NCBI GenBank assembly: GCA_016188175.1
Contig: JACPII010000002.1
Location: 4,865-68,864 of the forward strand
Direction of reading: 5' to 3'
Origin: Candidatus Woesearchaeota archaeon
GTDB lineage: Archaea; Nanobdellota; Nanobdellia; Woesearchaeales; JACPBV01
Length of the DNA stretch: 64,000 nt
Every line of letters begins with the position of its first letter. Within the stretch, counting starts at the first letter, position 1. The position numbers and the translations under genes are program-made. Positions 11,478 to 12,868 of this stretch are shown here, one piece after another. Under the pieces are notes generated by a model. The model was not told the origin of the DNA, did no database searches, and worked only from the letters and a program-made list of their open reading frames with translations.

Positions 11478-12110
11478 CGTTAGTCAGCGGTTAGTCGCAA
11501 TGCAGCCTTCTCAAGAAAGGAGCATCATGAAGGGGAGCTATTTCATTTATAAAAGTATCGAAGAAAAAAATCACCCCGAGCTAACAAGGTAATGATTGCG
11601 GTTGGCTTTCCGGATATTGCCGGGCAGTAAGTCGCGCAAATGAGATATTGTCAAGGCACCCCGGCAGAAAAAAGACTCCGGCGGGTGCTGGACAGTAAAA
11701 GCAGAATCTGCAGGCAAGGAGATTAATTTCCGTAAGTGGATATCCTTGCCCATATTGGCGGACTTCAACAGAAATCCGACACCTCCCGTCAAAGACGGGG
11801 GGGATTGCTCGCCCTCCGTTGCGAAGCAACCGGAACGCTGGATTATCCCTCCGGTCGCTCGGTCGGATTCAAAGAAATGTACGTATTTCTTGAACACGAA
11901 ATTCTTAAGGAATTTCGTTGTTTCTGAGAATAAAGATATTCCCGCTGCATTTCCAGCAGGTTTACACCATCAGTTAAAAACTGATGGAATATCCTTATTC
12001 AACAATGATCATCCGAATATTAAAGTCCGCGGCTATAACGCTTGAGAATGATAAAAAACGCTTTTTTGCCGATATACTTCTTCTGAGCATCCAGCTTCGC
12101 GGGCTTCGGC

Positions 12111-12126
12111 GAAACCTTTATAAATA
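12111..12126 (+). promoter_or_regulatory. Archaeal BRE+TATA promoter (GCGAAACC TTTATAAATA) driving a structured noncoding transcript and the tRNA downstream
   Basis: Consensus-like CGAAA BRE directly 5' of TTTATAAATA. No CDS downstream for ~480 bp. Confidence 0.5.
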
Positions 12127-12428
12127 AGTCGCCTTTCCAACCCACGATGGCTTTCAATCTTTCTATGTTAGAGGGTACGCTCTAGTCTTGCGTTGAAAAC
12201 CTCTTTGTGGGGGAGTGAAAGCCATGCACGGATGGATGCCCTGGTAGTGTAGTCTGGCACAGCCAAAACTGCTGCAGCAGCTATCATGAAGCCTTGTCAC
12301 GGCTTCGACTCGGGTTCAAAACATTTCTCCGCAGGAGAAATGAGCAAAGAGTGCGTTCATGTTGGATTCCGCATTCGCTCAATCCAACTTGCCTGCCGGG
12401 GAGCGTGAATGTCCCGACCAGGGCGTTC

Positions 12429-12523
12429 GGGCTCGTAGCTCAGCCTGGTAGAGCACCTGGAGGGACGGAACCCTGGTGAAGCTTTTAACCAGGTCGTCGC
12501 GCGTTCGAATCGCGTCGGGCCCA
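12429..12523 (+). tRNA. tRNA-Lys(UUU) with a ~21-nt intron at a non-canonical position (immediately 5' of the anticodon loop). Mature length 74 nt.
   Basis: Manual fold. Acceptor GGGCUCG/CGGGCCC, D arm GCUC/GAGC with G18G19, T arm GCGCG-UUCGAAU-CGCGU. Removing AGGGACGGAACCCUGGUGAAG leaves anticodon loop CUUUUAA. Confidence 0.7.
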
Positions 12524-12625
12524 TTCATCCCATCGAACGGAGTGAGATGGGATTATGAGTATGCCAGTGCCCCTTGGAATAGTCCATGAGGTTGAAACTG
12601 GGATTTGCCCATTGGTTCAATTACC

Positions 12626-12868
12626 ATGAAAAAAAAATTTGAAATCAGTGAGCATAGATTAGTGCCAAAGCATACCAAGCTTAGTGACAAAGAAAAAGAG
12701 GAGCTCTTGGCAGCCTATCAGATAACCAATAAAGAATTGCCAAAGATAAAGAAGAACGATCCTGCAATTTCCTCCCTTGAGGTGAAAGAAGGGGATGTCA
12801 TAAAGATCGTGCGCCCTTCCCTGACGTCCGGAGAATCCACATTCTACAGGGGTGTTGTCAATGTTTAA
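12626..12868 (+). CDS. rpoH: DNA-directed RNA polymerase subunit H (Rpb5)
   Basis: HRLVPKH...GDVIKIVRPS...YR signature. ATG at 12626, downstream of the TTG-called start. Heads the rpo cluster. Confidence 0.9.
   Translation: MKKKFEISEHRLVPKHTKLSDKEKEELLAAYQITNKELPKIKKNDPAISSLEVKEGDVIKIVRPSLTSGESTFYRGVVNV

What the first reader, a model, noticed from the sequence alone, without database searches (positions are those of the whole stretch)
12117..12428. Promoter-driven structured noncoding region directly upstream of the tRNA; candidate ncRNA or unusual tRNA leader
A near-consensus BRE+TATA (GCGAAACC TTTATAAATA at 12111-12126) has no ORF behind it. The ~280 nt that follow contain several strong hairpins (GAAGCC/GGCTTC, TTCTCC-GCA-GGAGAA, and the 8-bp GTTGGATT/AATCCAAC). 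There are also long-range complementarities: GGCTTTCA 12149-12156 with TGAAAGCC 12217-12224, and GCCCTGG 12238-12244 with CCAGGGC 12418-12424. This is the size and architecture expected for SRP RNA, RNase P RNA or another structured RNA co-transcribed with tRNA-Lys. I could not place conserved motifs by eye.
Basis: partly seen in the sequence, partly recalled or inferred. Interest (0 to 1): 0.6.

Follow-up and report, generated by a model that had tools for sequence, protein, structure and literature searches.

The report
Hidden twice-interrupted tRNA-Asp gene plus leader
The "structured noncoding region" is mostly an ordinary aspartate tRNA gene that standard tRNA finders missed because two archaeal-type introns interrupt it, preceded by a conserved 80-base leader hairpin of unknown role.

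Summary
They do not form an SRP RNA, an RNase P RNA or a new large ncRNA. Window 12238-12425 (+) is a tRNA-Asp(GUC) gene split by two bulge-helix-bulge (BHB) introns: 22 nt in the D-loop (12259-12280) and 91 nt in the T-loop at position 59/60 (12321-12411). GCCCTGG/CCAGGGC is its acceptor stem. GAAGCC/GGCTTC is its anticodon stem. The other two hairpins lie inside the T-loop intron. Splicing in silico gives a 75-nt cloverleaf that ARAGORN calls tRNA-Asp. It is about 92% identical (hand count) to the in-silico-spliced tRNA-Asp of relative L018. In DPANN (Woesearchaeota/Nanoarchaeia-like) relatives, the same promoter - tRNA-Asp - tRNA-Lys - rpoH locus carries intron-free tRNA-Asp genes in six loci. 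The neighbouring tRNA-Lys also has a non-canonical intron, at 30/31. The remaining part, 12147-12226, is a real leader. It is a long hairpin starting at the predicted transcription start, with a conserved AAUCUUUCU tract and compensatory changes across 16 sequences (window plus 15 relatives). It matches no Rfam family. No promoter separates tRNA-Lys from rpoH, so one transcript probably carries the leader, both tRNAs and the RNA polymerase operon. The disrupted tRNA is a new member of a known kind. Only the leader is possibly new.

The parts
12109..12126 (+). Archaeal promoter: BRE-like GCGAAACC followed by the TATA box TTTATAAATA
   Evidence: Read directly. The same RGAAAnnTTTATAAA element sits at the orthologous position in relatives, followed by a 22-nt spacer. 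The same TATA-N22-ATG spacing precedes leaderless protein genes elsewhere in the window.
12147..12226 (+). Leader hairpin starting at the predicted transcription start. Basal 10-bp helix ATGGCTTTCA/TGAAAGCCAT, then the conserved tract AATCTTTCT paired with a purine-rich strand, then a variable tip.
   Evidence: MFE -30.3 kcal/mol, z = -3.0. All 16 sequences (window plus 15 relatives) fold the same way, mean z = -3.8. Compensatory changes occur in columns 4-9 of the ungapped 5' arm alignment. One copy per locus, always upstream of tRNA-Asp.
12227..12237 (+). Unpaired linker between the leader hairpin and tRNA-Asp position +1. The inferred RNase P cut is at 12237/12238.
   Evidence: Unpaired in the MFE fold. 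Cleavage by RNase P is inferred from general knowledge and was not tested.
12238..12258 (+). tRNA-Asp(GUC) exon 1: acceptor 5' strand, D-stem 5' strand and D-loop up to G18 G19 C20
   Evidence: Matches the 5' part of intron-free orthologues.
12259..12280 (+). tRNA-Asp intron 1, 22 nt, in the D-loop after C20. Relaxed BHB motif: H = UCUG/CAGC (3 of 4 pairs), bulges GC^A and AG^C, inner helix CAGC/GCUG.
   Evidence: Introns at the same site occur in L009, L018 and L021. By hand inspection of the sequence, L042 also has one. Position 17a covaries with the intron base (U-A or C-G). Removing the intron restores GGC|CUAUCAUG, as in the intron-free D-loops of L025 and L014.
12281..12320 (+). tRNA-Asp exon 2: D-stem 3' strand, anticodon arm GAAGCC UUGUCAC GGCUUC (anticodon GUC), 4-nt variable region, T-stem 5' strand UCGGG and T-loop UUCAAA
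12321..12411 (+). tRNA-Asp intron 2, 91 nt, in the T-loop at 59/60. BHB motif: H = UUCA/UGAA (4 bp), bulges AA^A and UG^U, outer helix = the T-stem (5 bp). It contains the hairpins at 12322-42 and 12358-91.
   Evidence: Thirteen of the 25 tRNA-Asp genes recovered (window plus 24 relatives) have an intron at exactly this site. Base 57 covaries with the intron base (A-U in 8, G-C in 3). No C/D boxes. No Rfam match. No similar copy elsewhere.
12412..12425 (+). tRNA-Asp exon 3: U60, T-stem 3' strand CCCGA, acceptor 3' strand CCAGGGC and discriminator G73. CCA is not encoded.
   Evidence: U49-A65 here and in L013, against C49-G65 in most relatives, is a compensatory change across the intron.
12429..12523 (+). 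tRNA-Lys(UUU) with a 21-nt intron at 30/31 (12460-12480). Strict BHB: outer helix 4 bp, H = CACC/GGUG, bulges UG^G and AA^G, inner helix AGGG/CCCU.
   Evidence: Rfam tRNA, 47.2 bits, with 28 nt in place of the 7-nt anticodon loop. ARAGORN with introns allowed reports i(33,21). The BHB motif is listed.
12524..12868 (+). 102-nt spacer with no TATA-like element at promoter distance, then rpoH (12626-12868), the first gene of the RNA polymerase operon. Probably on the same transcript.
   Evidence: The spacer's only A/T-rich octamer lies 3-10 nt before the rpoH ATG. rpoH and rpoB are confirmed by Pfam. In most relatives examined only about 14-40 nt (hand counts) separate tRNA-Lys from the rpoH start.

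Best explanation
A conserved archaeal promoter (12109-12126) starts transcription at about 12147. The transcript has three non-coding parts.

1. An ~80-nt leader hairpin (12147-12226).
2. A tRNA-Asp(GUC) gene (12238-12425) interrupted by two bulge-helix-bulge introns: 22 nt in the D-loop and 91 nt in the T-loop at 59/60.
3. Three bases later, a tRNA-Lys(UUU) gene (12429-12523) with a 21-nt intron at 30/31.

The transcript most likely runs on into rpoH and the RNA polymerase operon.

The archaeal splicing endonuclease would cut inside the two 3-nt bulges of each BHB motif, and a ligase would join the exons. The products are a 75-nt tRNA-Asp and a 74-nt tRNA-Lys. RNase P and RNase Z would free the tRNAs from the leader, from each other and from the mRNA.

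Shown here: the exon/intron map, the BHB motifs, the cloverleaves, the synteny, and the conservation and covariation of the leader. Inferred: the start site, the enzymes, co-transcription with rpoH, and any role of the leader. My best guess for the leader is a 5'-terminal stem that stabilises the precursor and hides its 5'-terminal AUG.
For: **Exons.** In-silico splicing gives sequences that ARAGORN calls tRNA-Asp(gtc). A search restricted to BHB-compatible introns picks 12259-12280 and 12321-12411. The product is a 75-nt molecule with a 7/7 acceptor stem, 5/5 anticodon and T stems, T-loop UUCAAAU, anticodon GUC, C38, G73 and G10-U25.

**Orthology.** In rpoH-anchored loci from DPANN relatives the order tRNA-Asp - tRNA-Lys - rpoH recurs. 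I recovered 25 tRNA-Asp genes of 73-188 nt (window plus 24 relatives). They carry 0-3 introns at the same three sites: D-loop, 37/38 and 59/60. Six are intron-free.

**BHB motifs.**
- The T-loop intron has a perfect 4-bp H, two 3-nt bulges and the T-stem as outer helix.
- H pairs 4/4 in 11 of the 13 T-loop introns. Base 57 covaries with the intron base.
- The D-loop intron has H 3/4 plus a 4-bp inner helix. Position 17a covaries among the relatives that share this site.
- The tRNA-Lys intron is a strict hBHBh' motif.

**Fold.** An unconstrained MFE fold of 12238-12425 already gives the acceptor, anticodon and T stems.

**No rival RNA family.** Rfam gives nothing else at E<=1 over the whole window or at E<=10 locally.

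**Leader.** All 16 sequences form one hairpin beginning 1-6 nt from the predicted start, with z from -2 to -7. Columns 4-9 show up to 6 canonical pair types.

**Literature.** Disrupted tRNA genes in DPANN lineages with alpha4 EndA carrying the L3 loop are reported in PMC5829648.
Against: - There are no expression data. Splicing, the transcription start and co-transcription are all inferred.
- The D-loop BHB is relaxed: H has a U-C mismatch and the outer helix is only 1 bp. It would need an endonuclease with broad specificity, and I did not look for that enzyme.
- The inner helix of the T-loop intron has only 1 contiguous pair before a mismatch.
- An unconstrained BHB scan of the region returns many chance motifs. 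The motif alone is therefore weak evidence; it counts only together with the exon alignment.
- The narrow covariance model of the leader (R1) did not recover the window copy.
- The organism is placed only by RpoH similarity (up to 70%) and shared locus architecture.
Confidence: 0.88

Rival explanations
1. One reading: the ~280 nt after the promoter are one structured RNA, such as SRP RNA, RNase P RNA or a new large ncRNA, co-transcribed with tRNA-Lys.
For: Size, promoter and strong folding.
Against: No SRP, RNase P or other family match even at E<=10. The helices cited are accounted for one by one as tRNA-Asp stems and intron hairpins. Relatives have intron-free 73-75-nt tRNA-Asp genes at this spot.
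Confidence: 0.02
2. 12238-12425 is a dead tRNA-Asp gene broken by two insertions. The working tRNA-Asp is encoded elsewhere.
For: Neither ARAGORN nor Rfam recognises it. The 91-nt insert is far longer than the 20-45-nt T-loop introns of relatives.
Against: All stems of the spliced product pair perfectly, and the identity bases are intact. Both inserts sit exactly at recurrent intron sites with BHB geometry. A compensatory U49-A65 pair spans the insert. The locus is the conserved home of tRNA-Asp in relatives. No other tRNA-Asp is seen in the 64 kb, though the rest of the genome is unknown.
Confidence: 0.03
3. The leader hairpin (12147-12226) is more than a disposable precursor segment. It is a cis-regulatory RNA, or a released small RNA, that controls the tRNA-Asp/tRNA-Lys/RNA-polymerase transcript, for example by binding a protein at the conserved AAUCUUUCU tract. 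This is compatible with the best explanation and adds a function to it.
For: The 5' arm is conserved in sequence and the helix covaries in 16 sequences. The element sits in a fixed position at the transcript start, one copy per locus. It heads the operon for the catalytic RNA polymerase subunits, with no intervening promoter.
Against: No known motif was found: no K-turn, no C/D or H/ACA boxes, and no BHB in the correct orientation (and inspection). The tip is variable. Some relatives (L005, L006, L009, L010) lack the motif. Conservation of the first 20 nt could reflect promoter or initial-transcribed-sequence constraints. No function was tested.
Confidence: 0.3
4. The leader encodes a leaderless micro-peptide starting at the ATG at 12147 (MAFNLSMLEGTL).
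For: An ATG lies exactly at the leaderless-mRNA distance from the TATA box in the window and in relatives. Short ORFs of roughly 6-20 codons follow in most relatives; in L021 the reading frame runs into the tRNA without a stop.
Against: The conserved nucleotides AATCTTTCT fall in different reading frames in different relatives (L015, L024, L025, L018, L014 against L001-L004, L013 and the window). Peptide length and sequence are not conserved. The ATG is base-paired in the basal helix.
Confidence: 0.04

Closest known systems
Archaeal tRNA genes with multiple and non-canonical BHB introns (Thermoproteales, ARMAN/Micrarchaeota and other DPANN; Marck & Grosjean 2003, Sugahara 2007/2008, Fujishima 2011, Kaneta 2018 = PMC5829648)
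   Same: Protein-spliced introns are defined by helix - 3-nt bulge - 4-bp helix - 3-nt bulge - helix. They lie outside 37/38 (here D-loop, T-loop 59/60 and anticodon stem 30/31), with several per gene. Standard tRNA finders miss such genes. They are associated with lineages whose endonuclease has broad specificity.
   Different: This is a different lineage and gene, from a Woesearchaeota/Nanoarchaeia-like MAG. The 91-nt T-loop intron is long for a non-canonical intron: relatives have 20-45 nt at this site. Splicing was not demonstrated.
Haloferax volcanii tRNA-Trp intron carrying a box C/D guide RNA (recalled from memory)
   Same: A long (~100 nt) structured intron in an archaeal tRNA.
   Different: No C or D boxes in any intron here and no Rfam snoRNA/sRNA match. 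The intron is in the T-loop, not at 37/38.
BHB-containing processing stems flanking archaeal rRNAs
   Same: A long helix formed by precursor sequence next to stable RNA genes.
   Different: The leader helix here is a local hairpin entirely 5' of the tRNAs, not a leader-trailer stem. It has no correctly oriented pair of 3-nt bulges around a 4-bp helix. L026 has a mirror-image arrangement, which is not the endonuclease substrate geometry.
tRNA/mRNA and sRNA/tRNA co-transcripts in Nanoarchaeum equitans (Randau 2012; recalled from memory)
   Same: In a DPANN archaeon, tRNAs share transcripts with other genes, and processing creates the mature ends.
   Different: N. equitans tRNAs are transcribed without leaders. 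Here a long, conserved, structured leader precedes the first tRNA.

Membership tests
Intron-containing archaeal tRNA gene (BHB introns) | Exons assemble into a canonical cloverleaf with a defined anticodon | tested here: met
   ARAGORN calls the spliced sequence tRNA-Asp(gtc). The 75-nt product has a 7/7 acceptor stem, 5/5 anticodon and T stems, and T-loop UUCAAAU.
Intron-containing archaeal tRNA gene (BHB introns) | The insert boundaries coincide with gaps relative to intron-free orthologues at the same locus | tested here: met
   The tRNA-Asp - tRNA-Lys - rpoH order recurs. Six intron-free 73-75-nt genes exist. Splicing the window gene restores the D-loop GGCCUAUCAUG and the T-loop UUCAAAU seen in them.
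Intron-containing archaeal tRNA gene (BHB introns) | A BHB motif (4-bp helix flanked by two 3-nt bulges on opposite strands, plus at least one flanking helix) at each exon-intron junction | tested here: met
   T-loop intron: H 4/4, outer helix 5 bp. tRNA-Lys intron: outer 4, H 4, inner 4. D-loop intron: relaxed, H 3/4, inner helix 4 bp, outer 1 bp. H covaries across relatives at both tRNA-Asp sites. Caveat: the motif alone is common by chance.
Intron-containing archaeal tRNA gene (BHB introns) | Introns are removed in vivo (spliced tRNA, circular or linear intron detectable) | not testable with these tools
   No transcriptome data are available.
Intron-containing archaeal tRNA gene (BHB introns) | The genome encodes a splicing endonuclease able to cut relaxed or non-canonical BHB motifs | not tested
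   I did not search for EndA in the window, and the rest of the genome is not available. PMC5829648 reports alpha4 EndA with the L3 loop in DPANN lineages rich in disrupted tRNAs.
SRP RNA / RNase P RNA / other Rfam families | A covariance-model match | tested here: not met
   The only hit is tRNA at 12429-12523. Nothing else appears at E<=1 in 64 kb. Locally at E<=10 there is only noise (YrlA 18.7 bits against a cutoff of 69; HOTAIR_3).
Intron-encoded box C/D sRNA | C (RUGAUGA) and D (CUGA) boxes | tested here: not met
   No C, relaxed-C or D box in the leader or in any of the three introns.
Leaderless small ORF (for the leader) | The reading frame and peptide are conserved among relatives | tested here: not met
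   The conserved tract AATCTTTCT is read in different frames in different relatives. ORF length varies, roughly 6-20 codons, and one relative has no stop before the tRNA.
Conserved structured RNA element (for the leader) | The same helix is kept through compensatory changes in independent sequences | tested here: met
   The 5' arms align without gaps. Column 4 pairs as G-C x7, A-U x4, C-G x2. Columns 7-9 show 4-6 canonical pair types. All 16 sequences fold into one hairpin, mean z = -3.8. Caveat: the partner bases were taken from each sequence's own MFE fold. No R-scape-type test was run.

The most novel reading that the evidence does not exclude
The leader hairpin (12147-12226) is a previously undescribed cis-acting RNA element of a Woesearchaeota-like clade. 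It starts at the first transcribed base and carries the conserved tract AAUCUUUCU. It heads a single transcript holding tRNA-Asp, tRNA-Lys and the genes for the catalytic RNA polymerase subunits, and it regulates the stability, processing or output of that transcript. tRNA excision would then create the 5' end of the rpoH mRNA.
Probability: 0.3. Interest if true: 0.55.

Novelty: new member of a known kind. Interest (0 to 1): 0.3.

Why it matters
- **Annotation.** This is an essential tRNA gene that ARAGORN in default mode and Rfam both miss. In a 64-kb window they see one tRNA or none. DPANN genomes that appear to lack tRNAs probably hide them in this way, as PMC5829648 already suspected.
- **Intron turnover.** The rpoH-anchored set of 25 tRNA-Asp genes carries 0-3 introns at three fixed sites. 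It is a compact natural series for studying intron gain and loss and the substrate range of DPANN splicing endonucleases.
- **The leader.** This is the only part that may be new. It is a conserved, covarying 5' hairpin in front of a probable tRNA-plus-RNA-polymerase transcript. Regulation of archaeal RNA polymerase synthesis is largely unknown (PMC10450193 says as much), so a conserved leader there is a testable lead.

Tried and rejected
- **Whole-window Rfam at E<=1 and local Rfam at E<=10**. No SRP, RNase P or sRNA family was found.
- **Unconstrained BHB scan of 12225-12535**. It gave hundreds of chance motifs and is not usable alone. I replaced it with a search requiring a 72-76-nt product similar to intron-free orthologues.
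- **Metagenome scan with ATGNCNNNNAATCTTTCTNT**. None of the 121 matches had the TATA box or a downstream tRNA-Asp.
- **MAFFT plus RNAalifold on whole leaders**. The 3' arms misaligned and no structure was predicted.
- **Covariance model R1 from four close leaders**. It recovers L013 (E = 0.007), L026 (E = 0.09) and L015 (E = 0.57), but not the window copy. It is too narrow, so I used my own column and partner counts instead.
- **BLAST of the three introns and the leader** against the window and all rpoH loci. No second copies turned up, so there is no sign of mobile or shared introns.
- **Leader-trailer complementarity** as a processing stem. Only 7-10-nt runs with G-U pairs were found, which is not above expectation. 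By eye, L006 has an 11-bp leader-trailer match; the script did not evaluate L006.
- **A hidden tRNA-Tyr or a permuted tRNA in 11480-12110**, considered because relatives have tRNA-Tyr upstream. No consistent cloverleaf could be built by hand, and there is no Rfam hit.
- **A micro-peptide in the leader.** Rejected because the reading frame is not conserved.

Full report
**1. The observation**

- The leader helix appears as repeat I1. Its exact core is ATGGCTTTCA 12147-56 / TGAAAGCCAT 12217-26.
- GCCCTGG(T)/(A)CCAGGGC lies at 12238-45 / 12417-24 (I7).
- GAAGCC/GGCTTC lies at 12288-93 / 12301-06 (I9).
- CATTTCTCC/GGAGAAATG lies at 12322-30 / 12334-42 (I5).
- GTTGGATT/AATCCAAC lies at 12361-68 / 12381-88 (I4).
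- The BRE/TATA element GCGAAACC-TTTATAAATA occupies 12109-12126, two bases left of the coordinate given.

Folding energies exceed dinucleotide shuffles. The leader has z = -3.0, the stretch 12238-12425 has z = -3.4, and the 91-nt piece 12321-12411 has z = -2.1. No ORF above 61 aa overlaps the region.

**2.

Rfam at gathering thresholds finds one family in 64 kb: tRNA at 12429-12523. In that match, 28 nt replace the 7-nt anticodon loop. Permissive searches add only noise. There is no SRP RNA, RNase P RNA or small-RNA family here. ARAGORN in default mode finds no tRNA at all in the window.

**3. What 12238-12425 is**

Read as a tRNA, the stretch has these parts.

- A 7-bp acceptor stem, GCCCUGG/CCAGGGC, followed by G73.
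- A D-arm start, UA GUGU AGUCUGGC.
- An anticodon arm, GAAGCC-UUGUCAC-GGCUUC, with anticodon GUC.
- A T-stem 5' strand plus loop start, UCGGG-UUCAAA.
- Ninety-one bases further on, U-CCCGA, which completes the T arm.

Removing two inserts gives sequences that ARAGORN calls tRNA-Asp(gtc).

**4. Comparative evidence**

Anchoring on RpoH, I fetched 43 loci. The closest (55-70% RpoH identity) are MAGs labelled Woesearchaeota, Nanoarchaeia or Nanoarchaeota. Several are labelled "uncultured Methanosarcinales", but these share the same locus architecture and are probably mislabelled. In these loci ARAGORN finds tRNA-Asp(GTC) directly followed by tRNA-Lys(TTT) directly followed by rpoH. tRNA-Asp is therefore the gene expected at this place.

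A pattern search recovered 25 tRNA-Asp genes of 73 to 188 nt: the window plus 24 relatives. I then asked which combination of up to three BHB-compatible inserts gives a 72-76-nt product most like the six intron-free genes. Every gene resolved into a normal tRNA-Asp. The introns fall at only three sites.

| Site | Genes with an intron there |
|---|---|
| D-loop, after C20 | window, L009, L018, L021; by hand inspection also L042 |
| Canonical 37/38 | 11 genes |
| T-loop, 59/60 | 13 genes |

For the window the solution is introns at 12259-12280 and 12321-12411. The mature sequence is GCCCUGGUAGUGUAGUCUGGCCUAUCAUGAAGCCUUGUCACGGCUUCGACUCGGGUUCAAAUCCCGACCAGGGCG (75 nt). By my hand count it differs at about 6 of 75 positions from the spliced gene of L018.

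**5. The splice motifs**

I used the canonical geometry. On each strand, read 5' to 3', the 4-bp helix H is followed by a 3-nt bulge, and the cut falls after the second bulge base. I checked this rule on the 37/38 intron of L011 tRNA-Lys.

- **T-loop intron.** H = UUCA/UGAA (4/4 pairs). The bulges are AA^A and UG^U. The outer helix is the 5-bp T-stem. The inner helix starts with one pair, has a mismatch, then continues UUUCUCC/GGGGAG.
- **T-loop introns across the family.** H is 4/4 in 11 of the 13 T-loop introns. Exon base 57 covaries with its intron partner: A-U in 8 genes and G-C in 3.
- **T-stem.** It shows U49-A65 in the window and L013 against C49-G65 elsewhere, a compensatory change that spans the intron.
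- **D-loop intron.** This is a relaxed motif. H = UCUG/CAGC with one U-C mismatch, the bulges are GC^A and AG^C, and the inner helix is CAGC/GCUG. Among the genes sharing this site, base 17a covaries with the intron (U-A or C-G).
- **tRNA-Lys intron (12460-12480, position 30/31).** This is a strict motif: outer helix AGAG/CUUU, H = CACC/GGUG, bulges UG^G and AA^G, inner helix AGGG/CCCU. ARAGORN with introns allowed reports the same 21-nt intron.

An unconstrained BHB scan is very noisy. The motifs count as evidence only because they sit exactly where the exon alignment requires them.

**6. The introns themselves**

- They contain no C/D boxes.
- They match no Rfam family.
- They have no similar copy in the window or in any relative.
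- The 91-nt intron is two to four times longer than the T-loop introns of relatives.
- I found no sign of a separate function.

**7. The leader**

Relatives carry the same promoter, RGAAAnnTTTATAAA. Twenty-two nucleotides later comes ATGRC, and about 6 nt further the tract AATCTTTCT(W)TAG. The same TATA-N22-ATG spacing precedes leaderless protein genes in the window. The start is therefore predicted at 12147.

- From that base, each of the 16 sequences (window plus 15 relatives) folds into a single long irregular hairpin. Z scores range from -2 to -7, mean -3.8.
- The 5' arms align without gaps, and their partners change in step. Column 4 pairs as G-C x7, A-U x4 and C-G x2. Columns 7-9 show 4-6 canonical pair types.
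- The element occurs once per locus, always in front of tRNA-Asp.
- The short ORF that starts at the ATG is not conserved in frame or length, so the constraint acts on the nucleic acid.
- I found no K-turn, no C/D or H/ACA boxes and no correctly oriented BHB.
- A narrow covariance model recovered only three further relatives, weakly, and not the window copy.
- A metagenome pattern scan returned only chance matches.
- Some relatives (L005, L006, L009, L010) have other leaders, so the element is specific to one clade.

Its function is unknown. My best guess is a 5'-terminal stem that protects the precursor and keeps the 5' AUG out of reach of ribosomes, and that is discarded after RNase P cleavage at 12237/12238. 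This is inference.

**8. The transcript**

Three bases separate tRNA-Asp from tRNA-Lys. The 102-nt spacer before rpoH has no TATA-like element at promoter distance. In most relatives examined that spacer is only about 14-40 nt by my hand count, too short for a promoter. Pfam confirms rpoH and the split rpoB downstream, and FKBP, FtsZ and SecE upstream on the other strand.

The promoter that "has no ORF behind it" therefore most likely drives the leader, both tRNAs and the RNA polymerase operon. tRNA excision would then produce the 5' end of the rpoH mRNA. This too is inference.

**9. Comparison with what is known**

Multiple and non-canonical BHB introns are well documented in Thermoproteales and ARMAN (PMC4033280, PMC4090602, PMC3239211). 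Kaneta et al. 2018 (PMC5829648) analysed Woesearchaeota and Pacearchaeota genomes. [quoted passage not shown] They also noted that incomplete tRNA sets in DPANN point to unidentified disrupted genes. The tRNA-Asp gene here is such a case: a new member of a known kind.

The leader matches nothing I could find in Rfam or in the papers searched.

**10. Verdict**

- The SRP/RNase P interpretation is rejected.
- The "unusual tRNA leader" alternative is supported for 12147-12237 only.
- Interest is modest (0.3). The main result is an ordinary though cryptic tRNA gene. A conserved leader of unknown role is the one open lead.

Noticed in passing
window 11705-11880: This stretch of the ~630-nt ORF-poor gap upstream of the promoter folds into nested helices: GGCAAGGA/TCCTTGCC at 11714-48, and AATCCGAC/GTCGGATT at 11775-11873 enclosing three hairpins. 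z = -2.3 on the + strand and -3.3 on the - strand. Bases 11712-11755 match L014:172-215 at 84% on the opposite strand. There is no Rfam hit, and the two overlapping ORFs have no Pfam match. It may be a second unknown structured RNA. It is not a recognisable tRNA.
   Followed up: partly
window 12524-12625; L001-L004, L007, L008, L012, L014, L018: tRNA-Lys and the rpoH start codon are only about 14-40 nt apart in most relatives examined (hand counts) and 102 nt apart in the window, with no TATA box. The RNA polymerase operon therefore appears to be transcribed through the two tRNA genes, and tRNA 3' processing would define the mRNA 5' end.
   Followed up: partly
L011 ~2885-2935, L022 ~1430-1480, L023 ~2920-2975: In three relatives a fragment follows the complete tRNA-Lys, before rpoH. 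It resembles a T-arm with a T-loop insert plus the tRNA-Lys acceptor 3' strand (for example GGAAGGTTCAAAAC...ATCTTCCGGCCCG). It could be a duplicated 3' exon or a tRNA-like element.
   Followed up: no
L006 ~2768-2785 and ~2965-2980: In L006 the leader (TTCCGTCGAGG) and the trailer after tRNA-Lys (CCTCGACGGAA) are perfectly complementary over 11 bp. They bracket both tRNAs like an rRNA-type processing stem. This was seen by eye; the script did not evaluate L006. It was not seen in the window.
   Followed up: partly
window 1-64000: Rfam and ARAGORN detect one tRNA or none in 64 kb. A crude D-arm/T-arm motif scan found no further obvious candidates. Further heavily disrupted or split tRNA genes cannot be excluded.
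   Followed up: partly
window 4813, 39198, 45305: TTTATAAA-N22-ATG occurs 6 times in the window with at most one mismatch, against 1.8 expected. This is consistent with widespread leaderless mRNAs whose start codon is the first transcribed base.
   Followed up: no
L001, L002, L005, L011, L018, L019, L026, L041: MAGs labelled 'uncultured Methanosarcinales archaeon' share the RpoH similarity and the leader/tRNA-Asp/tRNA-Lys architecture of Woesearchaeota/Nanoarchaeia MAGs. One locus, L006, is labelled Acidobacteriota. The taxonomic labels look wrong.
   Followed up: no
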